DNA from: Desulfurivibrio sp.
GTDB taxonomy: Bacteria > Desulfobacterota > Desulfobulbia > Desulfobulbales > SURF-16
Assembly (NCBI GenBank): GCA_003605035.1
Contig: QZKJ01000078.1
Coordinates: forward strand, 163-64,162
Reading direction: 5' to 3'
Length of the DNA: 64,000 bases
Below the pieces are notes generated by a model. It worked only from the letters and a program-made list of their open reading frames with translations. It was not told the origin of the DNA and made no database searches. Positions 3,301-18,679 of the stretch are shown here, one piece after another (positions within the stretch are counted from its first letter, which is position 1; the number at the start of each line of letters is the position of its first letter). The position numbers were made by a program, and so were the translations under genes.

Positions 3301-6221
3301 CATTCTACCCCTGTGTTGTCCTGTCTTTTCAACTCAGGCCAGAAAATAGCCTGATAAATGGCGCCCTCACCGCCACGGGCCGATGAAATTACCGAAGCGG
3401 CGGAACCGGCCGAGGCTCTCTGGCGCAACTCATTGAATTTCTCCAGCAGATTTGATTCAAGCTCAGACGGATTGGCACTGACCAGGAGTTCGGTGCCGCC
3501 ATTGGTTGCAGCCGCCTCAATAATTTCATCAGGACTGCATTCGGTGTCACCGACATCTCTTAACGTACCAGTCACCACTATATGGGTGGTGATATTCTTT
3601 TTATCGTACATGGTGCCATCGTCAGAAGGGAGCTGGCTGTTTCCGGCAGGATAAAGAACGCTCGCATCCGCATGCTGGGCAAAATACGTCAGGTCGTCAA
3701 GGTAGGTGCTGCCGTCCAGGCCATCCGTGCATTTCGTATCACTCACCTGGTCACCATCATCAATAGGGGCACTGTTGACAAAATCAATGACATCCTGATT
3801 GATATCAGCAGTGGATGCGCCTTCAGTGATGATCAGCACATGATTTTCCTGACACCAGTTGGTAATGGGGTTTACCGTCGTATCGAAATCATCGACGCTC
3901 AGACGCATGGCCGTATTCTGGGTGTAGTAGCCTATGGCGTTGTACATGGCTTCGGCCAGCGGCGTCCAGGAGGTGGCCTGAATGCTGTTCACCTGTTGAA
4001 CGACATAATCGATATGACTGCCTGGACCGCTTGCCGCCACATCGGTTCCGAGCCTGATGCCGGCCAGGATTTTCGCGCCGTCCTTGTTGTCCGTCGGACA
4101 ATATTCCTGGATCGCGTCACTGGGGTCAACAGTCGTGCACTCGGTAAGGGCGCCCACGGCATTAAAGGCCATGACGCCGATGCGAAGATCCGCAGCAGTT
4201 CCCTGCAGCACCCCTTCAGGCTGCGTGGTCTGTTTCTTGTAACCTTTCATGACGATCAACGACCTGTCACCGCCGAAAAAGGAGGCAACGCCGGAGTCGA
4301 TCAGCACCGCGGGCATACTCCAGAACTCGCCGGTGTCAAAGATCTGATCCGAAGGATCAATGACTTCCGGAATCTCCATATAGCCGCAGTAATCCTCTAC
4401 AGCCTGCTGGATACAGGCATCAGCCGTGTTCGGGTTAAGATCATCCGTCCAATGGGCAGGAGCAGCCGCGGCAATATCAGCAGCGGTACAGGTGCCCGGA
4501 CCAGCTCCATCAGCATCGACGAGCACAAGGACCCAGGCCTTGTTACACTCGTCCTTGTTGCTGTTATAGTTTCCACTGCATTCATAAAGGTATCCATCCG
4601 TTCCACATCGCGGGTCGCCGATGGTCCCGACCGGCGGACCGCAGGAAACCGGCGCACACCCGGCCGGGATGGTGGCCGGCTCCCAGCAGCGCCCGATATA
4701 GCCGTCACGCAGATCATCCGGGATGCCAATGATATAGTCACCCGTGCAGATATAACCACTGCTTTCCGTCGTAATGGTTGCAGGGGGGATGTCGTGATCA
4801 TAGATATGTTCGCAGGAGGTTTTCACATCCGTTATGCCAACAGGAAAGGAGCCATGCTTCGAGTAATACCAGCAGTCATGCAGGGCATGGTTATAGGCGG
4901 CGTTTGACTCGGCCATGATATTGTTGGTCCCGCCGTAGTCAAGACAGTCGGTAATGTCCTGCTTGAGCGCACCCTGATTGACCACATCCTGCTGCAGCTC
5001 CGTAAGAGCGTCCTGGCAGGCTTGATATTGATCGCTGGCAATAAAACTACTGGCACTCAAGGCCAGGATGGAAATTCTGGTTGTGTCGTCTGTGCTGTCG
5101 ATCCAGTTCTCTTCACTCGCCCCCTGGATGGACAGAGTCAAAACCTTTCCATCAGACATGGTCACTTCCTTGAAGAAACCATGATCGGCGCAACCACGGT
5201 TCTGAGAAATAAGCCGCTGGGCGTCCTCATCAAATTTACCGCCGGTAAGAATTTTCTTCTGGATGTCAAATTTGGAAGAGGAGGCCCAGTTCAGAAAATT
5301 TCCTTTTGCTGCAAAAGCCGAAACCCGCGATTGGACATCTGAAGTACCGTCATTTACACTGACAATCTTCACGAAAAGATCGGTATGGCTTGAGGCAGCT
5401 CCCGGTTGAGCAGCAAAAGCAGTCGCGGCGTCGGCACTTGACGCATAAGCGGTTTCTTCGAAATAGCCTTCATCCAACCTGACCCAGTTCACGCCGGCAT
5501 CATCCCAGACGCCGGTGCCGTTTGATGTTCCGGAACTCGTTGCCTTGAAAAGCATGCCGCCATCACTGACAATGTCATTAACACTGTAGGCAGTGGTATT
5601 ACGCCAGGTTGAGTCAACAGAGACCCATGTCACTCCGGTATCTTCATAAATACTAAGACCGTTTGTCAGATCCGAATCACTGGCCGTGCCGCCGGCGACC
5701 GTATAAAAGAGTTGACCATCAAACTGGACGAAACTTTTGGCGGGATACACCTCACTGTGACGCCAGACATCAATGGTATAAACTGATGTCCACGTCACTT
5801 CGCTGTCAAAACCGATCTCAACGCCGGTGGAAGGACTGCCCGTGGCAGCAGTCGCTTTGTAGAAGACCCCCTCTGTATAGACAATATCCCCAACCGCATA
5901 AGTCGCTCCGCTCTTCCATGGCTGAACCCCTTCTGTCCATTTATACCATTTATCTGCCGTGTAATTTCCCGCATACTGGGTTCCTGATGCGTAACTGTTA
6001 TCAACGCACTCACCGGTGTTTGCAACATAAGCCATGTCGAGCATGGAGCCGGAATTATCAATCATCAGCAAAAGATTCGAGCGGACGCCGAAGGAAAGGA
6101 ACGGTGGCTCGCCAAGTCCGATGCCACAGGTATCCGCGTAGGATAAAGTCGGCGGAAGTACATGAATAACCAGTCCGAAGATCAGTAAATCAATGACAAG
6201 ATATCGTAGGAAAAGCCTCAT
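303..6221 (-). CDS. pilY1: giant PilY1-like type IV pilus tip adhesin (vWA-like MIDAS, CBM5/12-like repeats, Ca-binding DxDxDG blocks, C-terminal PilY1/PilC beta-propeller)
   Basis: 1972-aa ORF with an N-terminal hydrophobic signal-like segment. DNSGS MIDAS-type motif at nt 6045..6059. Three W-x5-Y-x2-(G/N)D-I-V...G-x-(F/L)(Y/F)-(K/T)-(A/V) repeats at about nt 5475..5918. Asp-rich blocks at 3056..3203 and 2461..2596. The C-terminal region carries WRLGDIIHSTP...YMGANDGMLHAVNGG...GWGTILVGGMRFGG, typical of PilY1/PilC. It is the last gene of the minor-pilin operon. Confidence 0.85.
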   Translation of the reverse strand: MRLFLRYLVIDLLIFGLVIHVLPPTLSYADTCGIGLGEPPFLSFGVRSNLLLMIDNSGSMLDMAYVANTGECVDNSYASGTQYAGNYTADKWYKWTEGVQPWKSGATYAVGDIVYTEGVFYKATAATGSPSTGVEIGFDSEVTWTSVYTIDVWRHSEVYPAKSFVQFDGQLFYTVAGGTASDSDLTNGLSIYEDTGVTWVSVDSTWRNTTAYSVNDIVSDGGMLFKATSSGTSNGTGVWDDAGVNWVRLDEGYFEETAYASSADAATAFAAQPGAASSHTDLFVKIVSVNDGTSDVQSRVSAFAAKGNFLNWASSSKFDIQKKILTGGKFDEDAQRLISQNRGCADHGFFKEVTMSDGKVLTLSIQGASEENWIDSTDDTTRISILALSASSFIASDQYQACQDALTELQQDVVNQGALKQDITDCLDYGGTNNIMAESNAAYNHALHDCWYYSKHGSFPVGITDVKTSCEHIYDHDIPPATITTESSGYICTGDYIIGIPDDLRDGYIGRCWEPATIPAGCAPVSCGPPVGTIGDPRCGTDGYLYECSGNYNSNKDECNKAWVLVLVDADGAGPGTCTAADIAAAAPAHWTDDLNPNTADACIQQAVEDYCGYMEIPEVIDPSDQIFDTGEFWSMPAVLIDSGVASFFGGDRSLIVMKGYKKQTTQPEGVLQGTAADLRIGVMAFNAVGALTECTTVDPSDAIQEYCPTDNKDGAKILAGIRLGTDVAASGPGSHIDYVVQQVNSIQATSWTPLAEAMYNAIGYYTQNTAMRLSVDDFDTTVNPITNWCQENHVLIITEGASTADINQDVIDFVNSAPIDDGDQVSDTKCTDGLDGSTYLDDLTYFAQHADASVLYPAGNSQLPSDDGTMYDKKNITTHIVVTGTLRDVGDTECSPDEIIEAAATNGGTELLVSANPSELESNLLEKFNELRQRASAGSAASVISSARGGEGAIYQAIFWPELKRQDNTGVEWAVDWVGDVHSLFIDQYGRMYEDSNSDRMMNPSEDVDGDGKLDNDEDVNANGIMDAGEDTDSDGHLDVYEDKDSDGVIDGDDKRVIIYFDTSANRSKGCYNTSIFYTGACTNSKELSAIKYLWSANDWLSRISNVVLSADASVPYGANDVFYNRNTYLSSEQRRYIFTWVDLNNDGDVDYATEVLPFVDRDGSGNAINWAGLGVSNRGLVAKDFSAADNDEVRQIIRWVRGADWTTEDIDGDGILDAGEDLDGDGHLDVFEDVNGNGILDAGEDVDGDGSLESPVRNRMIPAAEGSGTLSSWRLGDIIHSTPMTVAAPSEGFHLIYNDKSYAKFVSRYKNRRHMIYMGANDGMLHAVNGGFYSEKDNKFCLVSLNADGTCSDAAAAAPALGAEMWGYVPYNLLPHLKCLTEKDYAGAKHKYYVDLRPRLFDVKIFSEEAACTADYNDAACTHPQGWGTILVGGMRFGGAPVDAAADLGQPNTDNRQFISSYFILDITDPEKPPVLLGELTQTLSDSDGNLVPDSPNYVDLGFSTVVSTMSIMKDASVAPEVNKWYLILGSGPHGSDALKGVSDQDARISIVALNNLVDGNNLPVKSLRISAAAPVAGSPDGTFQLAGSPHGFVSDPITVDFDINPSMENYKSDAIYFGTVEGDFDATSSYWDGGGKMYRLVTRKLDLFGRSEYGTGASEPATEPYEWQIKTLIDLSSDVLDADGNPLHPAQPITASPSVGTDGKNFWVYFGTGRFFDANDKTDDTQQSYYGIKEPMTFVNPLDCTNSLRTFTWNEIELTASGAVPGEMGLLKVDEIEVHESTSPFTFVLSCVDGTTDCLPAGVVAAGGTYNILIDYFAGAYACTAAGYNGYADGWYRDFYPYTNRERNLGQGTLLGGLLTFTTYQPYEDTCLAEGLAYLYGVYYQTGTAWHQRIFGDYGIDILGNVEAKMSLGRGLAMTPSLYVGSGDEGDAGAGPKVFVQTSTGEIKEIQQQNLPFATKPGKYKWLEW

Positions 6222-6602
6222 ATCTTCACCCTATTGCAAGTAATGGATGGTAATAAACCTGAGAAAATAATTGACGATTTCGCCTAAAGCCACTTACCCG
6301 CAGTGCACCAGTCTAACTTCTTGATATTTCGTCAGGAGATGGTCAGTTTTCGAGCCTTTGCTGATAAAATTCTGCAAAACTAATAACTCAAGCTTCTGAT
6401 TTGTGGTAACATGTTGAAATTAAGCAAATATTTTCAGTCTGCCTGAAGATTATTTCCAGAGAATTCAGAAGCCTGAATAAAACGATATAAAATCAAACAT
6501 TCTGGATTCTGCCTCCTATCTTCGGAATTCCCATGACGGAGTTCAGAGCAGCAACTATGTCACAAAATACCGTGATAAAATAGATCAAGTCAGAAAGTTG
6601 AG

Positions 6603-7283
6603 CTAATAATTACAATCACCAGTCCAACCGACGGGAAAACGCCAGCCAAGCTGGATAATTGACCGGCTATCCACTCGTCCCTGATGAAGAGCGGTTACCT
6701 CATACAGTTTCAACACGCCGCCGCCGGCAGCGGATTTACCCTTCCCTTCATAGCCAGCGGCCATCTGTAACGCACCACCCGCCGCCATTTCAGTCCGACC
6801 GCCGATGTAAATATAAGAGACCCTCTGCGACCCGGCGGCATCCAGATCATCAAGATTTAACGTCGGGTCAACGGGCAAGGTGAACGAAACATCATTGAGA
6901 GCGTGGGCGTTGATATCGGCCTCGATAACGTTTTCGGCAAGGGAGGGATTTTGATACAACGCCAGTTCATTGCCATTGCGCTCGTAAACACGCACGACAC
7001 CTTCCAGATCGGCAACCGAGATACCACCGTCATCTGCCCCTGTTGATGAAAAACCCGTCGGGCAGTACAGATTCTGTTCAAGAACCTCCACGCCAACTGA
7101 AAGGCTGCCTTCCGCATTGTAAAAAGTCTCTTTGTGGACTTTCTCATTGCCCGCTATCTGCACCTCAATCGTCGTATTGGTTGTTGCCGCGACTCCGATA
7201 ATCACCAGAATCAGGAGAATAAGCAAGGAGGCGATCAGGACGAAGCCTCGCTCATTTTTTGCTATATTTTTCAGATGTATCAT
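6603..7283 (-). CDS. pilX: PilX-like type IV pilus minor pilin/assembly protein
   Basis: 226 aa. N-terminus MIHLKNIAKNERGFVLIASLLILLILVIIGVAA resembles the PilX N-terminal hydrophobic helix. Positioned between pilV and pilY1. Confidence 0.7.
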   Translation of the reverse strand: MIHLKNIAKNERGFVLIASLLILLILVIIGVAATTNTTIEVQIAGNEKVHKETFYNAEGSLSVGVEVLEQNLYCPTGFSSTGADDGGISVADLEGVVRVYERNGNELALYQNPSLAENVIEADINAHALNDVSFTLPVDPTLNLDDLDAAGSQRVSYIYIGGRTEMAAGGALQMAAGYEGKGKSAAGGGVLKLYEVTALHQGRVDSRSIIQLGWRFPVGWTGDCNY

Positions 7284-7290
7284 CGGGAAT

Positions 7291-7788
7291 TTATATGGAA
7301 TTTGATTTCATATAGGCCATGGTGACGGTACGTATCGTTCCGCCATCCTGCCTTTCAATAATTACATTAACCGTCTTGATATCAGGGAAAGGATAGTTCA
7401 CCGCAACATTCCAGTTAATTGTGTAATTACCGTCCGGAGAGGCTGATGTCCCATCCGCATTCGCACCGGTATCATCAAGACCGAAGTTGCCCCCGTCATC
7501 ATCTGTGCCGTCATTATTCGCATCCTCCCCAGTACCATCGCCGTCATCGTCATCAAGATCGGCGTCAGAATAGTTGAGCCCGATGAGCGTTTCGATGCGG
7601 TCGGATGCCCAAGACGATGACTCCGTTATCCTGTTCGCCGATGAATTGCCTTTTATGGCTGCTGTCTGCATGGCATTGACCGCCAGAATGCCGATGGTAA
7701 AAATAGCAACGGCAATCAAGACCTCGATGAGGGTAAAACCTGATTGACGGGAAGTCGCTATGGCCTGGGAAAAATTTCTCATGATCAC
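7291..7788 (-). CDS. pilV: PilV-like minor pilin (prepilin-type N-terminal cleavage/methylation domain)
   Basis: 165 aa. Leader ...SRQSG|FTLIEVLIAVAIF matches the class III signal (G/FTLIE). 4-nt ATGA overlap with pilW. Contains an Asp-rich DxDxDG insert. Confidence 0.8.
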   Translation of the reverse strand: MIMRNFSQAIATSRQSGFTLIEVLIAVAIFTIGILAVNAMQTAAIKGNSSANRITESSSWASDRIETLIGLNYSDADLDDDDGDGTGEDANNDGTDDDGGNFGLDDTGANADGTSASPDGNYTINWNVAVNYPFPDIKTVNVIIERQDGGTIRTVTMAYMKSNSI

Positions 7789-8405
7789 AAACCCATATTT
7801 CTGCAGTTGACCCTTTGGATCAACAGACGACGGCGAAGATAATCATTATAAGGCCCCCAAATTGTTCCTGAAAATGAAGCATATTGTTTCGAATTAAGAA
7901 AATTGGCATCAGAACCGCCAGCCCGGGCCAGAATCGAGATGACCACACTGCGAACTTCCTCAACGTCCGCGGTAACCGCATCGTCTTCATCAAGATATAC
8001 AAATTCAAGTTCTTCAATGTTCTGGGCGATGGGTTGAGTATTTCTTGTAATTTCCTTTTCTACAGTATCCAGAGCATAGGTAATATTTTCTCCAGAGTCG
8101 ACGACATCATCATCCTCATTGAGATCCATGCTAAAATTAATACTGGACGCAGTGATGGCAAGCAAAGCGGCTCCGGCTTTTCCTGTTGAATCATATCCTG
8201 CCATTTTTATCTCCCTGGTCATCATATCAAGTCCGGCACGGATATTCTGCTGCATTTCCGCAACCTGATCCTGAGCGGTATAACTGTTCTGCTGGGACTG
8301 AAACGCTGAATAAATTGAGGCTATAACAATACCGGAAATCAGCATGGTGATCAGTAATTCAATGAGGGTAAAACCCCTCTGCATATCTTCAACATGGGTT
8401 CTCAT
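7785..8405 (-). CDS. pilW: PilW-like minor pilin
   Basis: 206 aa. MRTHVEDMQRG|FTLIELLITMLISG prepilin motif. Gene order is GspH-like, W, V, X, Y1. Confidence 0.8.
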   Translation of the reverse strand: MRTHVEDMQRGFTLIELLITMLISGIVIASIYSAFQSQQNSYTAQDQVAEMQQNIRAGLDMMTREIKMAGYDSTGKAGAALLAITASSINFSMDLNEDDDVVDSGENITYALDTVEKEITRNTQPIAQNIEELEFVYLDEDDAVTADVEEVRSVVISILARAGGSDANFLNSKQYASFSGTIWGPYNDYLRRRLLIQRVNCRNMGL

Positions 8406-8451
8406 CTTTTAACATTTAACCCCGGTCTTATGAGATTCACGGTTGTCAACC

Positions 8452-8976
8452 TTATAACCTTTCCAAGGTCAAACCACCTGCAAGGGAAAGTGAAATCTGG
8501 TAACGTACATTATCATCGTTCCTCACTTGCACGTTACCAATTCGACTGCTCAACGGCAGCCCCCGCGCAGTAAAACCAGGAGTAGTGCTGCCTAAAGAAA
8601 AATTTACGCTATCCAGATCAACACTGGCAGGCATAGTGACATTGGCCAGAATTCTTTCATCCCCATTTTGCGTATCATCATCCGCGGTTCCGGTTGTTCC
8701 TCCATTATCAACAAAAACCTGATACGTTTCCGCACCGGCGTTAAAAGAGAGCACCACATTGCTGTTGGTTTTAATGGCCTCAATCCGGGCTTTCTGAAAA
8801 TTCGTATAAATCTCGCGGGCTGCTGCCTTGAGGCGATAATTGGCGATCCACTGAGAATAATTAGGTATCGCAATGGCCATCAGAACACCCATTATGGCCA
8901 TGACCACAATAAGCTCGACTGTCGTGAAGCCCTGACTGTTTCGATGCAATTTTGTTACTCGCTGGCGATATTTCAT
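8452..8976 (-). CDS. GspH/FimT/FimU-family minor pilin
   Basis: The ORF track extends to 9087, but the internal ATG at 8976 gives MKYRQRVTKLHRNSQG|FTTVELIVVMAIMG, a normal prepilin leader. First gene of the operon. Confidence 0.7.
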   Translation of the reverse strand: MKYRQRVTKLHRNSQGFTTVELIVVMAIMGVLMAIAIPNYSQWIANYRLKAAAREIYTNFQKARIEAIKTNSNVVLSFNAGAETYQVFVDNGGTTGTADDDTQNGDERILANVTMPASVDLDSVNFSLGSTTPGFTARGLPLSSRIGNVQVRNDDNVRYQISLSLAGGLTLERL

Positions 8977-9578
8977 GTTAAATTTTTTTTGTGGATTGCA
9001 TACCGCGTTTTCAAAATGCACAAATCGTACCTCCATGCAGCACACATAATTAGATGAAACAGCTTTTCCCATTTGATTGTCAAGCAAAAAGAAATACTTG
9101 CAAAATCAATGAGTCAGCCTGAATTTTCAAGAAAATTTCCTTTCCAATCGCCTCACCAGGGCGCAACTATAAAAAAAGTTTATCACGGTTGCCTGGCAAG
9201 CTACTAACAAAAAATTTTACCAGAGTAAGGGGTTGAAAAAGATTCACGGTCACGAGTACTTGACAAAAAACTGAGTGAGGGATGGCTATAATTCTTCAGA
9301 AAAACTACTGAAATTGCATGCAATTCCAAACAAAAGAATTTTCTGCTGGAAATGCTTTTTGCGTCTTCATGAGAAAAATGGACCCAACAATTTCCGTCTA
9401 AAAAATCTGCTCGAGTTATAATGAGTTACTGCAGTTCCTTGAAAGCTGTTGCTAGATTTTTTTAACGTCAACCCGGCCACAATGCTAAAAAAAATTAACA
9501 GTTTTTTTTGATGAAACAAATACAAATAAATGAAGGAAAAGCGGATACAGCAATCTGACAATAACAGGTAACGAATAT

Positions 9579-9755
9579 TCAAGTTTCCATCTGCACCTCA
9601 TCACTGCATCCGCAGCTGACGCTTTCCGCCTGGCACATGGGACACAAAAACGTTCCCTCCTCCTCATCCAGGCTCAGCACAGACCAATCATAATATTTGC
9701 CGCATCTGCCGCAGTCCACAGCATGATTATCCGCCCGCAGATCTTCGTCTTCCAT
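9579..9755 (-). CDS. 58-aa zinc-ribbon-like protein (CxxC ... CPxC), below the ORF-track size cutoff
   Basis: My own translation: MEDEDLRADNHAVDCGRCGKYYDWSVLSLDEEEGTFLCPMCQAESVSCGCSDEVQMET. AGGGAGAG Shine-Dalgarno just upstream of the ATG. Same strand as, and 79 nt downstream of, the DUF1566 gene. Confidence 0.4.
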   Translation of the reverse strand: MEDEDLRADNHAVDCGRCGKYYDWSVLSLDEEEGTFLCPMCQAESVSCGCSDEVQMET

Positions 9756-9834
9756 ACTCTCCCTGATTTCACTTCACGCGCCCGACAAGCACCTGAATTC
9801 ACATGAGACTGAAATATTATTTTACAGGGCTGCA

Positions 9835-10302
9835 TCAGGGTCGCACCGCCCGGACAAATCCTTGTTTCGCTTTGACATACTTAAATTCATTTCCTCCGCA
9901 GAGAGGATATGATTCCCACCTGCCGGCATTTACCTCCTGTGATGGACTGACGCTCCAGTAATTATAATTATTGCCAAGCTTCATCATACAGTCGTTGTCC
10001 CCCAGCGCAGCAAGATAATGCAGCATATAAAGCTCTTTTCTTGTCGGCAACCGCCAATCGCCATACCCACCCAGGTTCAACCTTTCCGCATACTCCCTTG
10101 CTTCCTGCCAGGTGGAATACCTGGGGCTTTTATCAATCTGCCACAGCAGACCGTTATTGCTCTGCCGGCAGACCCCGTTGCCGAGATCAACCAACCCGGC
10201 TTGACGCTCTGCCGCAGGGGATGACCGATTTTGACCTGCGCCGGCACAAGCTGCCAGAATTGACAGCAGGAGAATCAACACAATGGATTTCGTTGCAGGC
10301 AT
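9835..10302 (-). CDS. DUF1566 (Lcl C-terminal domain)-like lipoprotein
   Basis: The internal ATG at 10302 gives MPATKSIVLILLLSILAAC (lipobox LAAC). LLWQIDKS...TWQEAREYAERLNLGGYGDWRLPTRKELYML matches the DUF1566 signature. Confidence 0.7.
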   Translation of the reverse strand: MPATKSIVLILLLSILAACAGAGQNRSSPAAERQAGLVDLGNGVCRQSNNGLLWQIDKSPRYSTWQEAREYAERLNLGGYGDWRLPTRKELYMLHYLAALGDNDCMMKLGNNYNYWSVSPSQEVNAGRWESYPLCGGNEFKYVKAKQGFVRAVRP

Positions 10303-10344
10303 ATGCTCCCCTGTACACCGGCCAACCACTTCACTTTCCAACAA

Positions 10345-10848
10345 TCAGGCCACATTGTAATGATTGTAGCACACTTCAACCTGCAGAGGGAAATCCCCAT
10401 ATCTTTCCCCGCAAATTTTCCCATTAATCACATAAACAACCCCGGCCTGGTTATCCATTACCTTGAAATGACGCAGATATTCCTGGATGGAGACCATGCC
10501 CTGATCATAAAAATAAGTGGAAGCCAGAAAAAAGGCCGGGATGACCACACTGGCATTGTGCCGTAAAGTGACGGAGATGCTGACCATGCGACTCCGCATA
10601 TTGCCGATCAGTTCATTGCCGCTGAAGAGCAATATCTTCCAGGAGGAATTATTGGTGAGCTGCACATGGGGCACACCAGCAAAATGATCCACCTGGACAA
10701 CCTCGACCAATCCCTGAGCAAAAGCCTCGTCATATGGCAGCAATGCCTTATCGTCGTTAAGGATTATCGTGTTTTCAGCACTGTTAAAAAAACTGATTAC
10801 CGGCAGCAGTTCCGGTGTTTCTGTCCATGCCTGCATGATTCTTCCCAT
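10345..10848 (-). CDS. hypothetical protein, divergent ARPP-1/DUF6569-like
   Basis: ATG at 10848 is preceded by GGAGG with a 5-nt spacer. The pattern YDEAFAQGLVEVVQV..AGVPHVQLTNNSSWKILLFSGNELIGNMRSRMVSISVTL...VIPAFF parallels the ARPP-1 core (ldEAl..G.v.i.Ev...G.V..l.v.N....pvLll.GeeLvGakQNR.ln.sill....t..iPVsCvE), but QNR and CvE are not conserved. Confidence 0.45.
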   Translation of the reverse strand: MGRIMQAWTETPELLPVISFFNSAENTIILNDDKALLPYDEAFAQGLVEVVQVDHFAGVPHVQLTNNSSWKILLFSGNELIGNMRSRMVSISVTLRHNASVVIPAFFLASTYFYDQGMVSIQEYLRHFKVMDNQAGVVYVINGKICGERYGDFPLQVEVCYNHYNVA

Positions 10849-10940
10849 GATACCCTCCACTTTTTTATTTTTCTTGCATTCCTTCACCTTTTCTCTCACC
10901 ATACAGACAGAGGTAGGACAGATAGTGTCCGACCAGCTCA

Positions 10941-11960
10941 ATGAAAGAAAAAAAAATGCAAAAATTCAAACCGCAACACAGCCGTCTGCTCTTTATCGAC
11001 AAGAAGATCAGGGACAGAACCTATCCGAACTGCACATCACTGGCCGAGGAATGGGAAGTCAGCGCAAAAACGATCCAGCGTGATCTGGATTACATGCGGG
11101 CCATGCTTGACGCCCCCATGGCCTATGACGCCGGAAAGCGCGGCTACTACTATACGGAAGAGAGCTTTCACCTGCCGGCAATCGTCTTGACCGACAGCGA
11201 TCTCTTTGCCGTGTTCATTGCGGAAAAGGTCCTCCAGCAGTATGAAAACACGCCGATTTACCCCAGACTGCAATCTCTTTTCGCCAGGATTGCCGAATCC
11301 CTGCCGGACAAAATCACCATTGACCCGGCCCAGTTACATGACAGATTCTCCTTTTTCAGCAGCCCCCACAGCATGATAGCGACACAGGTATGGGAAACCG
11401 TCTTCACTGCCCTGCGCACCTCGCAATCCCTGCACATCAGCCATGCCAAACCGGGCGCAACCGATCTCGCGCAACGCACGATCGATCCCTACCATGTGGT
11501 CAATTACCAGGGGGAATGGTATGTGATTGCTTTCTGCCAGGCACGCCACGATATCCGCACCTTTGCCCTCTCCCGCATTGACAAGGCGCAGTTAGCCGGC
11601 GAGCATTTCACGGTTCCCGCGGATTTTGATTTTCAACAAACAACCCGGGATCGTTTTGGTATACAATGGAGTGATAAGCAGTATGCTGTCAGGATATGGT
11701 TTTCACCGGCGGCAGCGCCCTACATCCGGGAAAGGCAATGGCACCAGGGCCAGCAGATTCAGGAAAACAGCGATAAAAGCATTATGATGACGTTTACCGC
11801 GAGCCATCTGCTGGAGATTAAAAAATGGGTGCTCTCCTGGGGCTGTATGGCCCGGGTTCTCGCGCCCCGTACCCTGGCAGACGACATACGAAGAGAGCTT
11901 GCCTCAGCAATGGGAAATTATGGAGGAAATGATGAAGAAAGAGCTCATCAAACTGGTTGA
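10941..11960 (+). CDS. HTH-WYL-WCX transcriptional regulator (YafY/CapW/BrxR-like architecture)
   Basis: 339 aa. N-terminal HTH ([39 protein letters not shown]). WYL core [35 protein letters not shown]-like C-terminal domain. The start could instead be the ATG at 10956. Confidence 0.85.
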
Positions 11961-12441
11961 GACAGACATTACCACCCTGGCAGTTGATGCCATTGTCAAT
12001 GCCGCCAACTCTTCCCTGCTGGGAGGAGGCGGGGTCGACGGCGCGATCCACCGGGCCGCCGGGCCGGAACTGCTGGCCGAATGCCGCACCTTAGACGGCT
12101 GCCCCACCGGCGAGGCAAAGATCACCAAGGGCTACAGGCTGCCTGCCCGTTTTGTCATTCATACAGTGGGCCCGATCTGGCGGGGGGGCAAGCATGAGGA
12201 ACCACAGCTTCTGGCCGCATGCTATCGCAGCACCTTCAAGATTGTCCAGGCCAGACACCTTGAGACCATAGCCTTCCCGGCCATCAGCACCGGCGCCTAC
12301 GGCTTTCCGGGCAAGGAGGCGGCAAGGATTGCGGTGCGGGAAACCCTGATGGCGGCCGAGCAGCTCCCCTTTCTGCAACAGGTCATCTTCGTCTGTTTCA
12401 ACCCGGACACCAGAGAAGCCTATGAGGAAGCCCTGCAATGA
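11932..12441 (+). CDS. YmdB-type macrodomain protein (O-acetyl-ADP-ribose deacetylase / ADP-ribose-binding)
   Basis: [48 protein letters not shown]...[13 protein letters not shown] are canonical macrodomain motifs. GGAGG lies 5 nt upstream of the ATG at 11932. Overlaps the 3' end of the WYL gene. Confidence 0.9.
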
Positions 12442-13619
12442 CTAACCCGCTCAGCCCTGACGAGCAACTGCTGGCCTGGATGACGGATATCCGCAGGACT
12501 CTTCATCAGCATCCGGAACTTGCCCTGCAGGAATTCCGCACCGCGGAATATGTGTCCGCTAAACTTGCTGAACTCGGCATCGCCCATCAAAATGGGATAG
12601 CCGGCACCGGCATCGCGGCCTTTATCGGCGAAAAGAAAAACGGCGCCAGATCTGTGGCGCTGCGCGCCGATATGGACGCCCTGCCGATCACCGAAAAAAC
12701 CGGGCTGCCTTTTGCCTCGCAGCATGATGGCGTCATGCACGCCTGCGGCCATGACGGCCATATGGCCATGCTGCTGGGCGCCGCGGCACTCTTAAAAAAA
12801 CAGGCCCGGCTGCCTGGCCGGGTCGTGCTGCTCTTTCAGCCGGCCGAAGAGGATGAGGGCGGGGCGGAAAAAATGATTGCCGCCGGAGTGCTCATGGGAG
12901 TGGACGCCATCTTCGGCGGCCATATTGAGCGTCATTACGCGGTTGGCGAGATTGCCGTGCAGCCCGGCCTCATCTGCGCCTTTACCGATGAATTCCGGAT
13001 CAACATCCGCGGCCCGGGAGGACATGCGGCCAAACCCCATGAAAGCGCTGACTGTATTGTGGCCGCAGCCTTTCTGGTGACCAGCCTGCAGACCCTGGTC
13101 GCCAGGGAAACCAACCCGGTTTACCCGGCGGTGGTCACGGTGGGCAAAATCCATGGCGGCACCGCCTCCAATGTCATTGCCGACCAGGTCGTGCTGGAGG
13201 GCACCATCCGCACCACCCATATCGCAGCCCGGGAGAATATTTTCGAGAGCCTGCGCAGAATGGCGCTGGCGGTCCGGGATCTGTACAGGACGGAAACGGA
13301 ATTAACCCTGACCCCGGGCTACCCGCCGGTGATCAATGACCAGAAGATCGCCGAGGTGGCGCGACAGGCCGCCCGGCAGACGGTGGGAGAAAACGGGGTA
13401 AAAAGCCAGCCATACCCGAGTCTGGGCGGCGAGGATTTCTCTTTTTACCTCAAGCACATTCCAGGCTGTTTTGTCCGGTTTGGTGCCAGACGCGACGACC
13501 TTCCCCATGCCAATGCCCACAGCCCTGTCTTTGATTTTGATGAACGGGTACTGCCGGTCGGCGCCGAATTTCTGGCCCGCTGCGCCCTGCTCTTTCTGCA
13601 GCAGGCAGCCCGGGATTAA
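12438..13619 (+). CDS. M20D-family amidohydrolase (N-acyl-L-amino acid amidohydrolase/hippuricase-like)
   Basis: 393 aa. [22 protein letters not shown] and HACGHDGH metal-binding motifs. ATGA start/stop overlap with the macrodomain gene. Confidence 0.9.
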
Positions 13620-15069: not shown

Positions 15070-15615
15070 TCAGCGGGTTTTCCGTCTTAAGACAACCAGG
15101 CCGGCTAAACCAGAAGCGAGGAGCCATACTGTGCCAGGGAGAGGAACACTTGCACTGTAAGCATATGCCTTGCCCTCATCTCCAAAATTCATCGCTCTGA
15201 CCCGAAAACCTCCCGGATAGTAGCCATCTAGCTGCTCATCGCAAAACAAGGAAAAATTCACCAGAGAAAAGGGTGAATTGCCCGCCAACTTTAAAATAAC
15301 GCCTGCGGATAGATCTTCAGTTCCCCAGTTATTATATCCATACACACCACTCGAGGTTTTTACTATTTCCCACGAGTCAGCAGGGACAACCCCGGGAAAC
15401 CCCGCCCCGTCGACATCCGCGACAGATGAGTATTGAACCACCAAATCCAGATCATCAATAACAACGTCATTGGCGACATCTAACTGGAACCCATCAATAA
15501 GGGAATAATCAGAAAATGTATGATCAATACCTACATAAACAGTATAAGCAAAAACAGGAACGGAACTAAACAGCACGATGACCAATGAAGCAAATATCAT
15601 TTTTAAATTTTTCAT
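15070..15615 (-). CDS. secreted protein with PEP-CTERM/VPLPA-CTERM-like sorting signal
   Basis: 181 aa. Signal peptide MKNLKMIFASLVIVLFSSVPVFA. The C-terminus VPLPGTVWLLASGLAGLVVLRRKTR has the motif + TM + basic tail layout of exosortase substrates. Confidence 0.7.
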   Translation of the reverse strand: MKNLKMIFASLVIVLFSSVPVFAYTVYVGIDHTFSDYSLIDGFQLDVANDVVIDDLDLVVQYSSVADVDGAGFPGVVPADSWEIVKTSSGVYGYNNWGTEDLSAGVILKLAGNSPFSLVNFSLFCDEQLDGYYPGGFRVRAMNFGDEGKAYAYSASVPLPGTVWLLASGLAGLVVLRRKTR

Positions 15616-15659
15616 TTGTTTCTCCTTTTAATCATACATCCTGATGCTTCAAAAAATTA

Positions 15660-16442
15660 TCAATGAGTGATTTTATAAACGATGCAACTTCGATCAGCAC
15701 CATTAACTATGCCGTCGGCATTACAATCCATCCAGGGGTAAGCAACTCCACCATTTACCATATAATAGACAACGGCGCTTCTATCTGCTCCATTGATTAC
15801 CCCATCACCATTCGCATCCCCGCGTTCATAAATTTTCACACCAGGGAAAGCCACACCTGTCAAATCAAGCACGGCTTCACTGGTGGAAACAAAATTTGCA
15901 TACACATCAGGCGCAGGCCGCACAACACCGAGCCCGAGGGAAACGCCAAAATAGCCGCTTGCATTGCCGGTTGCTGCATCCTTGTCAGGGGTACTGTTTT
16001 CAGAACGGGCAAACGTAACCTTACCAAGCAGCTTCCGTGCCCCGGTGACCCCGGCAGTCGGGGCATTCTCATCAATTTTCCCGTTGATAAAAACCACTTC
16101 TCCCACATCGGTGTTGATCTGAGGGTCCTGATAGGGGTATTTGGCGCCATCGGGTGTACCGAAATACCAGTCAGCTTCATTTTTGATTGCGGTGGGGGCA
16201 GAACCGGCAGGATCAGTTGCCGGATCAACGGGATAAAATCTGCTTTTATCATAAGCCAGTTTTACTCCGGCGCTGACCAGAGGATCGGCATTGATGTCAA
16301 CGTAGAGGTAAATAACCAGATTCGTCTCCGTATATGCCCCTTCTGCGTAGACATCAACATCTGCGGCCATTGCCGTGCCGCCTGACCCAATGATGACAGC
16401 GGAAAGGATTGCCGCAATACCGAATGTTGTTTTCTTCTTCAC
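15660..16442 (-). CDS. secreted protein with cohesin-like N-terminal domain and C-terminal dockerin-type duplicated Ca-binding repeats
   Basis: 260 aa. GTG start with GGAGG upstream. Signal peptide ...GGTAMA. C-terminus GDANGDGVINGADRSAVVYYM...DCNADGIVNGADRSCIVYKI is the dockerin type I pattern (DxNxDGxIxxxD, twice). The cohesin call is weaker, resting on a beta-sandwich-like V.L.YD..F motif. Confidence 0.65.
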   Translation of the reverse strand: MKKKTTFGIAAILSAVIIGSGGTAMAADVDVYAEGAYTETNLVIYLYVDINADPLVSAGVKLAYDKSRFYPVDPATDPAGSAPTAIKNEADWYFGTPDGAKYPYQDPQINTDVGEVVFINGKIDENAPTAGVTGARKLLGKVTFARSENSTPDKDAATGNASGYFGVSLGLGVVRPAPDVYANFVSTSEAVLDLTGVAFPGVKIYERGDANGDGVINGADRSAVVYYMVNGGVAYPWMDCNADGIVNGADRSCIVYKITH

Positions 16443-16772: not shown

Positions 16773-17288
16773 TTAATATTTCTTGTCGGCGTAGGCCAGC
16801 CAGCCGCCAGCCAGCACCAGGTCCTTGTCAAAGGAATTGAGCGTGAATTTACAGGTGAATTCCTTTGTTCCTCGGGCAATAAGGGTTTCCTTGTCCATGT
16901 CAATCGAAACGGTTACCTCAGGCCCGACAGCAAAAAGGGCGTCAATGTCTTTCTTGGGCAACTCAATGGCCAGCATGCCGCAGTTGAACATATTCTGCCG
17001 GAAAATCCTGGCAAAACTCTCGGCAATGACCACATTGATGTTATTCACCTCAAAGACCCAGACCGCGTGTTCCCGGGAGGAGCCGCAACCGAAATTGGCG
17101 CGGGTGACGATGACTCCGGCCCCTCTGGTATTGACCGCCGGATCAAAGCCAGGCAGTTTCAGATCCTCCAGGATAAAGGGTTTGAGGTCCTCCTTGGTGT
17201 TTTCCGTCAGATATTTCGCCGGAATAATCTCATCTGTATTGATATTGCTTCTGTCCAGAAAAAGGACCGGACCGCCGAATGTCTTCAT
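16773..17288 (-). CDS. leuD: 3-isopropylmalate dehydratase small subunit (archaeal/type-2 LeuD)
   Basis: MKTFGGPVLFLDRSNINTDEIIPAKYL...GCGSSREHAVW. The ATG at 17288 is preceded by GAGG. The track ORF extends to a GTG at 17399 through a 9-bp repeat array. Confidence 0.9.
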   Translation of the reverse strand: MKTFGGPVLFLDRSNINTDEIIPAKYLTENTKEDLKPFILEDLKLPGFDPAVNTRGAGVIVTRANFGCGSSREHAVWVFEVNNINVVIAESFARIFRQNMFNCGMLAIELPKKDIDALFAVGPEVTVSIDMDKETLIARGTKEFTCKFTLNSFDKDLVLAGGWLAYADKKY

Positions 17289-17300
17289 AACAACCTCGTA

Positions 17301-17390
17301 GGGTTTGTTGGGTTCGTTGGGTTTATTGAGTTTGTTGAGTTTGTTGAGTTTGTTGAGTTTGTTGGGTTTGTTGGGTTTGTTGGGTTGAGG
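17301..17390. repeat. 9-bp tandem repeat array, ten units (GGGTTTGTT/GAGTTTGTT), between leuC and leuD
   Basis: Units read directly: GGGTTTGTT GGGTTCGTT GGGTTTATT GAGTTTGTT x4 GGGTTTGTT x2 GGGTTGAGG. In frame with leuD this encodes (P/L)NK repeats. Confidence 0.9.
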
Positions 17391-17395
17391 CCGTT

Positions 17396-18679
17396 TCACA
17401 GCATCTCCCGGGGATCGGTGATGCAGCCTTTCACCGCCGCGGCGGCTGCGGCAAGCGGGCTCATCAGGTGAACCATGCCGCCCTTGCCCATGCGTCCGTT
17501 GAAATTGCGGTTGGTGGTGGAGGCACAGACCTCGCCCGGGGCCAGCACCCCGTTGCTCATGCCCAGACAGGCGCCGCAGGTGGGGTTGGTCACACAGAAG
17601 CCGGCCTCCATGAAAATCCTGATCAACCCCTCGTCCAGGGCCTGGCTGTAAACCTTGGGGGTGGCCGGCGAAAGGATGGCCCGTACATGGTCGGCGATTT
17701 TCCGGCCCTTGAGTATTTCCGCGGCCACCCGCAGATCTTCAATGCGGCCGTTGGTGCAGGAACCCATGTAAACCTGGTCGATTCTGGCCCCGGCCATGTC
17801 GGTGATGTCCTTGACCTCATCGGGCTTGTAGCCGTAAGTCACCTGCGGCGCCAGTCCGGTTACGTCAAAGGTCTTTTCCGCCGCATAGCCGGCATCGGCA
17901 TCGGAATGCCATTTGCGGAAATCAGCCACCGCCGCCTCGACATCTTGATACTGATCCTGGATAAAGGGCCAGAGGTACTCGGCGGTAACCCGGTCTGGCA
18001 GACACACCCCGCAGGTGGCGCCGGCCTCGATGGCCATGTTGCACACCGTCATGCGGCTCTCCATGCTCATGCCATCCACCACCGGGCCGCGGAACTCCAT
18101 CACCTTGTCGGTGGCGCCGTTTACGGTCAGTTCCTTGATGACCCTGAGGATGACATCCTTGGCATAAACCCCTTTGCCAAGTTTTCCGGCAATGGTGATC
18201 TTCATGGTTTCCGGCAGACGGAAGGAACAGACCCCCTTGAGAATGCCGACCTCCAGATCCGTGGTGCCGACGCCCGCGGCAAAGGCACCGAAGGCCCCGT
18301 GGGTGCAGGTGTGCGAGTCGCCCATGATCACCGTGTAACCGGGGCGGATAAATCCTTTTTCCGGAAACAGGGCATGGCAGATCCCGTTGGCGCCGATATC
18401 AAAAAAATCATTGATATGATTGCGCCTGGCCCAATCCCGCAGAATCTTGGCCTGGATGGCTGTCTTGGTATCCTTGGACGGCGTGACATGGTCAATCACC
18501 ACTTTAATCTTTGCCGGATCAAATACCCTGTCCATGCCTCTCGCCTTCAGATCATTGACGGCGATCGGGGTGGTAATTTCGTGGCACATGACCACATCTA
18601 TATCAAGCACGACGTTATGAGCCGAGGGAACGTCCCGTTGGTGGGCCTCAAAAATCTTCTCCGTGATGGTTTTACCCAT
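17396..18679 (-). CDS. leuC: 3-isopropylmalate dehydratase large subunit (aconitase family, archaeal-type LeuC)
   Basis: 427 aa. Aconitase-family Fe-S cysteines (GDSHTCTHGA, GSCTNGR, CGACLG). Directly upstream of leuD. Confidence 0.93.
   Translation of the reverse strand: MGKTITEKIFEAHQRDVPSAHNVVLDIDVVMCHEITTPIAVNDLKARGMDRVFDPAKIKVVIDHVTPSKDTKTAIQAKILRDWARRNHINDFFDIGANGICHALFPEKGFIRPGYTVIMGDSHTCTHGAFGAFAAGVGTTDLEVGILKGVCSFRLPETMKITIAGKLGKGVYAKDVILRVIKELTVNGATDKVMEFRGPVVDGMSMESRMTVCNMAIEAGATCGVCLPDRVTAEYLWPFIQDQYQDVEAAVADFRKWHSDADAGYAAEKTFDVTGLAPQVTYGYKPDEVKDITDMAGARIDQVYMGSCTNGRIEDLRVAAEILKGRKIADHVRAILSPATPKVYSQALDEGLIRIFMEAGFCVTNPTCGACLGMSNGVLAPGEVCASTTNRNFNGRMGKGGMVHLMSPLAAAAAAVKGCITDPREML

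What the first reader, a model, noticed from the sequence alone, without database searches (positions are those of the whole stretch)
9579..13619. Divergent locus: ARPP-1-like + DUF1566 lipoprotein + zinc ribbon versus WYL regulator-macrodomain-M20 amidohydrolase (candidate ADP-ribose-linked module)
Seen:
- The plus-strand genes are translationally coupled. The WYL 3' end overlaps the macrodomain start, and the macrodomain stop and M20 start share ATGA at 12438..12441.
- On the other side of a 92-bp spacer, three small minus-strand genes run in series, each with its own SD: a 167-aa ARPP-1/DUF6569-like protein, a DUF1566 lipoprotein, and a 58-aa CxxC/CPxC protein.

Established: HTH-WYL-WCX regulators (CapW, BrxR, PafBC) switch on defence or damage operons after binding nucleic-acid-derived ligands. 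Macrodomains bind and hydrolyse ADP-ribose conjugates. ARPP-1 was named for its association with ADP-ribosylglycohydrolase and NAD-derived nucleotide systems.

Inference: the combination does not correspond to a named defence or TA system that I know (there is no DarT, no Thoeris/CBASS/BREX parts). It could be a previously undescribed ADP-ribose/NAD-metabolite sensing and detoxification module.
Basis: partly seen in the sequence, partly recalled or inferred. Interest (0 to 1): 0.7.

Follow-up and report, generated by a model that had tools for sequence, protein, structure and literature searches.

The report
WYL regulator wired to degenerate ARPP
A WYL-type transcription factor in a sulfur bacterium is paired, through a conserved DNA palindrome placed like the mycobacterial PafBC site, with a shortened and probably non-catalytic ARPP protein; the macrodomain is an optional add-on, and the amidohydrolase and lipoprotein are neighbours, not parts of a six-gene ADP-ribose machine.

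Summary
All six genes exist, at the stated coordinates, and all are under purifying selection. They are not one co-conserved unit.

- **Conserved core.** Across about 17 related Desulfobulbales loci the core is an HTH-WYL-WCX regulator plus a divergent 160-175-aa ARPP-1 derivative. This short form has lost the family's invariant Cys and Gln and the C-terminal half. A 4-Cys zinc ribbon accompanies it in about half of the loci.
- **Regulatory link.** A 23-bp palindrome (window 10912-10934) lies exactly 8 nt from a TATnnT -10 box of the ARPP promoter in every locus. This holds even in one genome where the ARPP gene is unlinked from the regulator. The geometry matches the PafBC/SiwR "-26 element".
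- **Macrodomain.** It is a generic YmdB type and is present in about two thirds of loci.
- **M20 amidohydrolase.** It is a vertically inherited gene, elsewhere found in an M20-GCS2-GGT operon without any WYL.
- **DUF1566 lipoprotein.** It occurs only in the closest relatives.
- **Prior description.** ARPP + WYL pairs and ARPP/Macro links were already predicted by Iyer et al. 2022.

Verdict: a new variant of a computationally known kind. Its regulatory architecture is well supported; its biochemical role is unknown.

The parts
9579..9755 (-). 58-aa 4-Cys zinc-ribbon protein (CxxC...CPxC, C-terminal CGC); a frequent but not obligate partner of the short ARPP
   Evidence: sub-threshold Zn-ribbon Pfam hits. 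Homologues lie directly downstream of the short ARPP in L004, L008-10, L013 and L174, with a fused remnant in L005/6. dN/dS is 0.22-0.40.
9835..10302 (-). Lcl_C/DUF1566 lipoprotein (signal peptide plus LAAC lipobox); a recent insertion between the ARPP and the Zn ribbon, probably not part of the module
   Evidence: PF07603 at 61.4 bits. Present only in the window and L008-L010 among about 17 orthologous loci.
10345..10848 (-). Short, degenerate ARPP-1 (DUF6569) protein, 167 aa. It keeps the beta-barrel core but lacks the invariant GAKQNR Gln, the VSC.E.GRW Cys, the helical insert and the C-terminal half
   Evidence: PF20208 at 61.9 bits, profile positions 23-98 of 297. Alignments with full-length ARPPs. 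A distinct subfamily of about 9 clusters at 50% identity. AF2 core pLDDT is about 80, with no PDB fold match. dN/dS is 0.14-0.28.
10898..10903 (-). Predicted -10 box (TATGGT on the minus strand) of the ARPP promoter, exactly 8 nt from the palindrome; no -35-like hexamer at the usual spacing
   Evidence: TATnnT lies at offset 8 in all 17 orthologous loci, including the unlinked L173. In 35 of 46 paralogue loci TAnnnT lies at offset 8 on the distal side, against 1 of 46 on the proximal side.
10912..10934 (.). 23-bp palindrome GGTAGGACA-GATAG-TGTCCGACC, the predicted operator of the WYL regulator. It spans about -43..-21 of the ARPP promoter and ends 21 nt before the WYL ATG
   Evidence: Conserved block in the intergenic alignment. 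Unique in the window, with 0.02 expected by chance. Present upstream of the WYL gene in 58 of 81 family loci, against 0.06 expected.
10956..11960 (+). HTH-WYL-WCX transcription factor (334 aa from the revised start)
   Evidence: PF13280 at 67.9 bits, PF25583 at 64.5 bits, weak HTH_11. 100% identical to a Desulfurivibrio sp. MAG protein. Closest solved relatives are PafB/PafC (E 6e-14) and DriD (E 7e-10).
11932..12441 (+). YmdB/MacroD-type macrodomain (Nx6GGVD and GAYG motifs intact), translationally coupled to WYL and M20; an accessory component
   Evidence: PF01661 at 161 bits. NF001664 at 235 bits against a cutoff of 200. Present in 11 of about 17 orthologous loci. Close homologues elsewhere have no WYL or ARPP nearby.
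12438..13619 (+). M20 amidohydrolase (TIGR01891 subfamily), co-transcribed by ATGA overlap; a lineage-inherited gene captured downstream of the regulator
   Evidence: Orthologues at 62-64% identity lie in M20-GCS2-GGT operons, or alone, without WYL. Absent from L014 and L023.

Best explanation
This is a lineage-specific (Desulfobulbales) regulatory module, not a six-gene machine.

**Core.** An HTH-WYL-WCX transcription factor and a divergently transcribed, catalytically degenerate short ARPP, often followed by a 4-Cys zinc-ribbon protein.

**Wiring (shown).** A 23-bp palindrome sits 8 nt upstream of the ARPP promoter's -10 box, at about -43..-21, with GTC at -28..-26. No -35-like hexamer is visible at the usual spacing.

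**Mode of action (inferred).**
- The regulator, probably a homodimer, binds this site. After its WYL domain binds a nucleic-acid- or nucleotide-derived ligand (ssDNA or an ADP-ribose-type molecule), it switches the ARPP(-Zn-ribbon) transcript on in the PafBC/SiwR '-26 element' manner. Less likely, it represses by occlusion.
- The regulator's own gene starts 21 nt beyond the other end of the palindrome, so it is probably autoregulated.
- The regulator gene is translationally coupled to a YmdB/MacroD-type macrodomain (optional) and to an M20 amidohydrolase. The amidohydrolase is an ancestral housekeeping gene that normally heads an M20-GCS2-GGT operon.
- The short ARPP cannot perform the Cys-dependent chemistry proposed for ARPP. 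It most likely acts as a binding or adaptor protein for a sugar or ADP-ribose-bearing target, while the macrodomain, where present, removes ADP-ribose or O-acetyl-ADP-ribose.
- The DUF1566 lipoprotein is a recent passenger.
For: - Pair conservation: the short ARPP lies divergent from the WYL orthologue in the window, L001-L014, L023, L171, L172 and L174.
- The pair is kept in a different context without macro or M20 (L012/L023).
- Operator: the conserved palindrome is unique in the window.
- PAL-N8-TATnnT is invariant in 17 of 17 loci.
- In the Desulfobia MAG the ARPP gene is on another contig from the WYL-M20 genes, yet keeps a perfect palindrome + N8 + TATGAT.
- The same geometry holds family-wide: 35 of 46 loci on the distal side against 1 of 46 on the proximal side.
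- PafBC promoters lack -35 and carry a -26 element (-23..-28) with a GTC triplet (PMC8635444). Homodimeric SiwR also needs a -26 region (PMC10693628).
- PafB/PafC are the closest solved relatives.
- ARPP degeneracy is shown.
- Purifying selection on all genes is shown.
- The accessory status of macro, M20, DUF1566 and the Zn ribbon is shown.
- The ARPP-Macro functional link rests on the fusion protein P0322 and on Iyer et al. 2022.
Against: - No experiment exists. The TSS, the -10 assignment and activator-versus-repressor are inferred from sequence geometry only.
- BrxR and CapW, also WYL regulators, are repressors that bind palindromes.
- Most orthologous loci share the same chromosomal synteny (type IV minor pilins on one side, RlmD/LeuCD on the other). 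Some co-occurrence therefore reflects shared descent within a narrow clade.
- Desulfobia WYL genes (L015/L016) lack the palindrome upstream of themselves, so autoregulation is not universal.
- The ligand and the biochemical role of the short ARPP and the Zn ribbon are unknown. The AF2 model is only moderate (pLDDT 62).
Confidence: 0.6

Rival explanations
1. All six genes form one ADP-ribose/NAD-metabolite sensing and detoxification module: WYL senses, ARPP and Macro process ADP-ribose, M20 cleans up, and the lipoprotein and zinc ribbon assist.
For: - Translational coupling of WYL-Macro-M20.
- All six genes are present together in the window and L008-L010.
- ARPP and Macro belong to the ADPr-centred systems of Iyer et al. 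2022.
- An ARPP+Macro fusion exists.
Against: - The six co-occur only in the closest relatives.
- M20 and Macro have closer or equally close relatives with no such partners.
- The ARPP lacks its catalytic Cys and Gln.
- The lipoprotein is exported, whereas the other proteins are cytoplasmic.
- There is no ARG, phosphatase, ART or sirtuin in the locus.
Confidence: 0.07
2. An SOS-independent DNA-damage or genotoxic-stress response of the PafBC/DriD/SiwR type. The WYL domain senses ssDNA and induces the short ARPP + Zn ribbon as damage-response effectors. The macrodomain reverses ADP-ribosylation of DNA or protein.
For: - The closest solved relatives are PafB/PafC and DriD.
- The promoter geometry is of the -26 type, as in PafBC and SiwR.
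- In paralogue loci the divergent cargo is often a small membrane protein, as DidA is for DriD (the DidA comparison is from my own knowledge).
Against: - No DNA-repair gene lies in the locus.
- The ligand is untested.
- The short ARPP lacks the Cys needed for SRAP-like cross-linking.
- This rival differs from the best explanation only in the inducing signal and the physiological role.
Confidence: 0.2
3. No functional unit beyond an autoregulated orphan regulator. The adjacency of ARPP, Macro and M20 is inherited synteny in a narrow clade and has no mechanistic meaning.
For: - Nearly all loci share the same flanks, pilins and RlmD-LeuCD.
- The short ARPP family is tiny and clade-restricted.
- Macro and M20 are generic.
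Against: - The operator-to-ARPP -10 spacing is invariant and persists when ARPP is unlinked from WYL.
- The pair was relocated together in L012/L023.
- Full-length ARPP is also paired with three other branches of this WYL subfamily (L017, L020, L037) and in the literature.
- Stop/start overlaps are maintained whether or not macro is present.
Confidence: 0.08
4. An anti-phage defence or abortive-infection system regulated by a BrxR/CapW-like WYL repressor, with ARPP/Zn ribbon as the effector.
For: - PADLOC's generic WYL models hit the regulator.
- Paralogues of this WYL subfamily sit next to Cas3, vWA and other variable cargo.
- Iyer et al. interpret ARPP systems as conflict systems.
Against: - No PADLOC system component matches any other gene.
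- The locus sits in a stable housekeeping context, not a variable island.
- dN/dS shows ordinary purifying selection, not rapid evolution.
- There is no short ARPP in viral contigs.
- There is no recognisable toxic effector domain.
Confidence: 0.05

Closest known systems
ARPP + WYL-TF two-gene neighbourhoods and ARG-centred ADPr-countering systems (Iyer, Burroughs, Anantharaman, Aravind 2022, Viruses 14:1977; computational prediction)
   Same: An ARPP-family gene lies next to an HTH-WYL one-component regulator. A macrodomain is an optional ADPr-processing accessory. The core is conserved and the accessories vary.
   Different: There is no ARG and no rhodanese-type or other phosphatase. The ARPP is a roughly half-length form lacking the invariant Cys and Gln on which the proposed chemistry rests. 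There is an extra Zn-ribbon partner. The context is stable and chromosomal, and the genes are under purifying selection. The operator and promoter architecture are defined here.
PafBC (mycobacterial DNA-damage activator; sigma adaptation) and SiwR
   Same: All are WYL-domain transcription factors. The target promoter has a canonical -10, no -35, and a factor-specific element around -26 containing GTC/GGA. SiwR is a homodimer that controls an adjacent operon.
   Different: Sequence similarity is only distant (E 6e-14, outside the HTH). The site here is a full 23-bp palindrome rather than a single -26 element. The phylum differs (Desulfobacterota). The cargo differs. Activation is not shown.
BrxR / CapW WYL repressors of defence systems
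   Same: The HTH-WYL-WCX architecture is shared. A palindromic operator lies next to the regulator's own gene. Paralogues sit beside variable cargo.
   Different: Similarity is very weak (CapW E 3e-5). There is no BREX or CBASS here. The promoter geometry argues for activation rather than simple repression.
YmdB / MacroD-type O-acetyl-ADP-ribose deacetylases
   Same: The macrodomain passes the NCBIfam equivalog cutoff and keeps the catalytic motifs.
   Different: Here the gene overlaps a WYL regulator gene and an M20 gene. Such coupling was not seen in 80 loci of close homologues.

Membership tests
HTH-WYL-WCX transcription factors | WYL domain followed by a WCX domain | tested here: met
   PF13280 at 67.9 bits (cutoff 21.8) and PF25583 at 64.5 bits (cutoff 23.9).
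HTH-WYL-WCX transcription factors | N-terminal (w)HTH DNA-binding domain | tested here: inconclusive
   HTH_11 scores only 17.1 bits, below the cutoff of 25. The N-terminal 100 residues are, however, the most conserved part of the family, and a conserved palindrome lies next to the gene.
HTH-WYL-WCX transcription factors | Ligand binding by the WYL domain controls activity | not testable with these tools
   Needs binding assays with ssDNA, ADPr and cyclic nucleotides.
PafBC/SiwR-type '-26 element' (sigma-adaptation) promoters | Canonical -10, no -35, and a factor site centred near -26 | tested here: met
   PAL-N8-TATnnT occurs in 17 of 17 loci. The proximal half-site lies at -29..-21, with GTC at -28..-26. 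No TTGACA-like hexamer lies at 16-18 nt. The geometry rests on a predicted, not a mapped, TSS.
PafBC/SiwR-type '-26 element' (sigma-adaptation) promoters | The factor activates transcription by contacting sigma region 4 / RNAP | not testable with these tools
   Needs in vitro transcription or a structure.
ARPP-1 (PF20208 / DUF6569) | Significant match to the family profile | tested here: met
   61.9 bits against a gathering score of 27. NCBI names close homologues 'DUF6569 family protein'.
ARPP-1 (PF20208 / DUF6569) | [quoted passage not shown] | tested here: not met
   Only profile positions 23-98 match. The helical insert and the C-terminal repeat are absent.
ARPP-1 (PF20208 / DUF6569) | Absolutely conserved Cys and Gln (GAKQNR ... 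VSC.E.GRW) | tested here: not met
   Both are present in 14 of 14 full-length representatives and absent from 9 of 9 short-form representatives and from all loci of the clade.
ARG-centred ADPr-countering systems (Iyer et al. 2022) | An ADP-ribosylglycohydrolase (ARG) core gene | tested here: not met
   None of the seven proteins of the locus has an ARG domain.
ARG-centred ADPr-countering systems (Iyer et al. 2022) | A WYL or Nudix one-component regulator, with ARPP and Macro as accessories | tested here: met
DarTG toxin-antitoxin | A DarT ADP-ribosyltransferase next to the macrodomain | tested here: not met
   No DarT or other ART appears among the neighbours.
Known anti-phage defence systems (PADLOC-DB v2) | A match of system-specific components | tested here: not met
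   Only generic WYL models hit, and RlmD hits methyltransferase models. There are no hits for ARPP, the Zn ribbon, DUF1566, Macro or M20.
MacroD/YmdB O-acetyl-ADP-ribose deacetylase | Equivalog-level profile match and the Nx6GGVD / G[AVI][YF]G motifs | tested here: met
   NF001664 at 234.7 bits against a cutoff of 200. The motifs [11 protein letters not shown] and GAYG are invariant in the alignment.

The most novel reading that the evidence does not exclude
A WYL-regulator subfamily is spread over Desulfobacterota, Spirochaetota, Verrucomicrobiota and Lentisphaerota. It would use a PafBC-like mechanism, with a factor-bound element replacing the -35 box, but as a homodimer on a 23-bp palindrome, to switch on a divergent cargo gene. 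In this clade the cargo is a catalytically dead ARPP plus a zinc-ribbon partner. That pair would act as a sensor or adaptor for ADP-ribosylated or sugar-modified targets, working with the macrodomain encoded in the regulator's own operon. This would extend 'sigma adaptation' beyond Actinobacteria and give the uncharacterised ARPP family its first tractable regulatory handle.
Probability: 0.25. Interest if true: 0.7.

Novelty: new variant of a known kind. Interest (0 to 1): 0.45.

Why it matters
ARPP (DUF6569) is an uncharacterised family, predicted only by comparative genomics to act on ADP-ribose or sugar moieties. This locus shows a compact, strongly conserved, Cys-less derivative under the control of a WYL regulator with a precisely defined operator. 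That gives simple, testable reagents: one protein, one 23-bp site and one promoter. The operator/-10 geometry is shared by relatives in four phyla. If it reflects PafBC-type activation, sigma adaptation would be far more widespread than the Actinobacteria in which it was discovered. The analysis also corrects an attractive but over-inclusive 'six-gene ADP-ribose module' reading.

Tried and rejected
1. PADLOC scan: no system found.
3. Simple promoter/terminator scan and inverted-repeat finder on the region: uninformative. They missed the palindrome because of its one mismatch and the seed length.
4. Literature searches for DUF6569, for the operator sequence, and for WYL + macrodomain: nothing beyond Iyer et al. 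2022.
5. Viral contigs:
   - Seven exact copies of the palindrome, but no WYL homologue beside them. My own rough estimate puts this near what chance would give for a collection of this size.
   - No short ARPP.
6. Idea that the full-length-ARPP-associated WYLs are the sister group of this clade: rejected by the NJ tree, in which they lie on other branches.
7. Idea that the M20 is a dedicated partner: rejected by its orthologues' contexts.
8. Idea that the L007 macro is a pseudogene: more likely long-read homopolymer errors.

Full report
**Source and observation.** The window is a contig of a Desulfurivibrio sp. MAG; the WYL and M20 proteins are 100% identical to NCBI MAG proteins on a 64,633-bp contig.

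Pfam, NCBIfam and PADLOC give the following:
- a 58-aa Cys-rich zinc ribbon (sub-threshold hits only);
- an Lcl_C/DUF1566 lipoprotein;
- a 167-aa ARPP-1 hit (61.9 bits, but only profile positions 23-98 of 297);
- an HTH-WYL-WCX regulator;
- a YmdB/MacroD-type macrodomain (NF001664, 235 bits against a cutoff of 200);
- a TIGR01891 M20 amidohydrolase;
- no defence-system match other than generic WYL models.

The ATGA overlap at 12438-12441 and the overlap of the macro start with the WYL 3' end are real. Two starts need revision. The WYL gene most likely begins at ATG 10956, because M6 is invariant and orthologues begin MxKFKPQ. The macro gene most likely begins at 11932. The divergent spacer is then 107 bp, not 92. 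Pairwise dN/dS against orthologues is 0.14-0.40 for all six genes, so all are real and under purifying selection.

**Are the six genes a unit?** I collected 86 loci with relatives of the regulator from genomes and further loci by exact-protein look-ups. I scored presence of each window protein with phmmer and by direct inspection.

The regulator's orthologues (at least 61% identical; a monophyletic clade in an NJ tree) occur only in Desulfobulbales-like MAGs. Within this clade:
- The short ARPP lies divergent from the regulator in the window, L001-L014, L023, L171, L172 and L174.
- The Zn ribbon follows the ARPP in the window, L004, L008-10, L013 and L174, and a remnant is fused to the ARPP in L005/6.
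- The DUF1566 lipoprotein is found only in the window and its three closest relatives, L008-10.
- The macrodomain is absent from L004-6, L015/16 and L023.
- M20 is absent from L014 and L023.
- In L012/L023 the ARPP-WYL pair sits in a different genomic context with neither macro nor M20.

M20 orthologues at 62-64% identity in other Desulfobulbales stand alone or head an M20-GCS2-GGT operon with no WYL, ARPP or macro nearby. The same M20-GCS2-GGT arrangement follows the regulator in L001, L013 and L016. M20 is therefore an inherited gene that the regulator came to precede.

Eighty metagenomic loci with macro homologues 55-70% identical contain none of the partners, so the macrodomain is a generic YmdB type. 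The six-gene module is not supported. The conserved core is regulator + short ARPP, often with the Zn ribbon.

**What the 'ARPP-like' protein is.** Iyer et al. 2022 defined ARPP as a beta-meander duplication with an inserted beta-barrel bearing an absolutely conserved Cys and Gln. They had already reported ARPP + WYL-TF two-gene neighbourhoods, and Macro/NADAR as accessories of ARG-ARPP systems (PMC9503650).

- Full-length ARPPs all carry GAKQNR and VSC.E.GRW: 14 representatives, plus those next to WYL paralogues in L017, L020 and L037.
- The short form replaces VSC.E.GRW by PA-FFLAST, has no conserved Gln, and lacks the helical insert and the whole C-terminal half.
- A profile search of 1.84 billion representatives finds about 9 short-form clusters, sharply separated from about 1,000 full-length relatives.
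- The AF2 model is moderate (pLDDT 62; core about 80) and has no PDB fold match.

The protein is therefore a conserved but almost certainly non-catalytic derivative. A natural ARPP-1+Macro fusion (P0322) independently supports a functional link between ARPP and macrodomains.

**The regulatory link.** Aligning the divergent spacers revealed a 23-bp palindrome, GGTAGGACA-N5-TGTCCKACC, at window 10912-10934. It is unique in the window, with 0.02 matches expected by chance.

- It occurs once per orthologous locus. In slightly variant form it lies upstream of the WYL gene in 58 of 81 family loci from four phyla, against 0.06 expected.
- On the ARPP side the palindrome is followed, at exactly 8 nt, by TATnnT in 17 of 17 loci.
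- This includes L173. In that Desulfobia MAG the short ARPP lies on a different contig from the WYL-M20 genes (L015) but keeps a perfect palindrome + N8 + TATGAT.
- In paralogue loci TAnnnT sits at offset 8 on the side distal to the WYL gene in 35 of 46 cases, against 1 of 46 on the proximal side. No more than 8 of 46 are found at any other offset.

Taking TATGGT (10898-10903, minus strand) as the -10 box places the palindrome at -43..-21 and its GTC at -28..-26. No -35-like hexamer lies at the usual spacing. This is the geometry of PafBC-dependent promoters, which have a canonical -10, no -35, and a -26 element with a GTC triplet (PMC8635444). It is also the geometry of homodimeric SiwR (PMC10693628). 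PafB/PafC are the closest solved relatives of the regulator, though distantly.

The conserved spacing and its persistence in the unlinked case are direct observations. The TSS, the activator mode and the ligand are inferences.

**Most likely mechanism.** The regulator binds the palindrome. On ligand binding to its WYL domain it turns on the ARPP(-lipoprotein-Zn-ribbon) transcript, and it probably also modulates its own operon, whose ATG lies 21 nt beyond the palindrome. The macrodomain, when present, supplies ADPr or O-acetyl-ADPr hydrolysis. M20 is co-transcribed but is not a dedicated partner. The short ARPP probably binds, rather than modifies, a sugar or ADPr-bearing molecule.

I give about 0.6 to this architecture as a whole. 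The ADP-ribose-specific part is considerably less certain. A DNA-damage-type signal (ssDNA, as for PafBC, DriD and SiwR) is the main alternative. Pure synteny, a dedicated defence system and the six-gene model are less likely.

**Novelty.** The pairing of ARPP with WYL regulators, and the ARPP/Macro theme, are already in the literature as predictions. The new elements are:
- the degenerate short ARPP subfamily;
- its Zn-ribbon partner;
- the operator;
- the -26-type promoter geometry, shared by a multi-phylum WYL subfamily.

I rate this a new variant of a known kind, of moderate interest.

Noticed in passing
L017-L086 (WYL paralogue loci from Desulfobacterota, Spirochaetota, Verrucomicrobiota, Lentisphaerota): The whole WYL subfamily (about 50% identity) carries the same palindrome (GGTrGGACAAATAGyGwCCyACC). 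Its 5' end usually lies 41-45 nt upstream of the regulator's ATG, and a TAnnnT box lies exactly 8 nt from its distal end. Several loci have a second copy 1-6 kb away (L019, L025, L059, L060, L064, L078), which may mark further targets.
   Followed up: partly
L052, L070-L072, L079, L080, L083, L085 (divergent from WYL; several lie near a Cas3-like gene); also L017, L022, L025, L056, L084: In many paralogue loci the first gene on the divergent transcript is a small predicted membrane protein. Examples are a conserved ~70-aa family MGYxIAYLLLALxIDLL...RRRLWSDxxFDC, or acidic proteins with a C-terminal hydrophobic tail. Other cargo includes vWA proteins, a 130-aa family and full-length ARPP.
   Followed up: partly
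L088-L090, L001, L013, L016: An M20 amidohydrolase - GCS2 (carboxylate-amine ligase, PF04107) - gamma-glutamyltranspeptidase (PF01019) operon is conserved across Desulfobulbales. It may be a gamma-glutamyl or thiol-compound cycle. The window's lineage has kept only M20.
   Followed up: no
P0322 (490 aa, from the representative library): A natural fusion of a full-length ARPP-1 domain (337 bits) with a C-terminal Macro domain (81 bits).
   Followed up: partly
L173 (GCA_030608985.1, JAUWDC010000106.1) against L015 (same MAG, JAUWDC010000281.1): In this Desulfobia MAG the short ARPP is unlinked from the WYL-M20 genes but keeps the operator. The WYL genes of Desulfobia (L015, L016) lack the palindrome upstream of themselves.
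   Followed up: partly
window 303-9087 (- strand): A type IV pilus minor-pilin operon (FimT/GspH-like, PilW, PilV, PilX) ends in a 1972-aa PilY1-like protein. The same operon flanks the module in most relatives.
   Followed up: no
window 16773-17399 (- strand), N-terminus of the LeuD-like ORF: The longest ORF begins with a KPNKPNKLNKLNKLNK... repeat encoded by a short tandem DNA repeat. It is probably upstream repeat DNA rather than a true N-terminus.
   Followed up: no
window 15070-16442 (- strand): Two secreted proteins lie between RlmD and LeuCD. One has a PEP-CTERM-like C-terminus (VPLPGTVWLL...RRK). The other has dockerin-like DxNxDGxIN repeats.
   Followed up: no
L007:1146-1700: The macro gene of this long-read MAG is split over three frames at G/C homopolymers. 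These are probably sequencing errors rather than a pseudogene.
   Followed up: partly
L005:7311-7922 and L006:3080-3691: In Desulfobulbaceae DB1 the short ARPP carries a C-terminal extension ending ...ACGKCGDLLPPA. It looks like the first CxxC knuckle of the Zn-ribbon gene fused in frame.
   Followed up: partly
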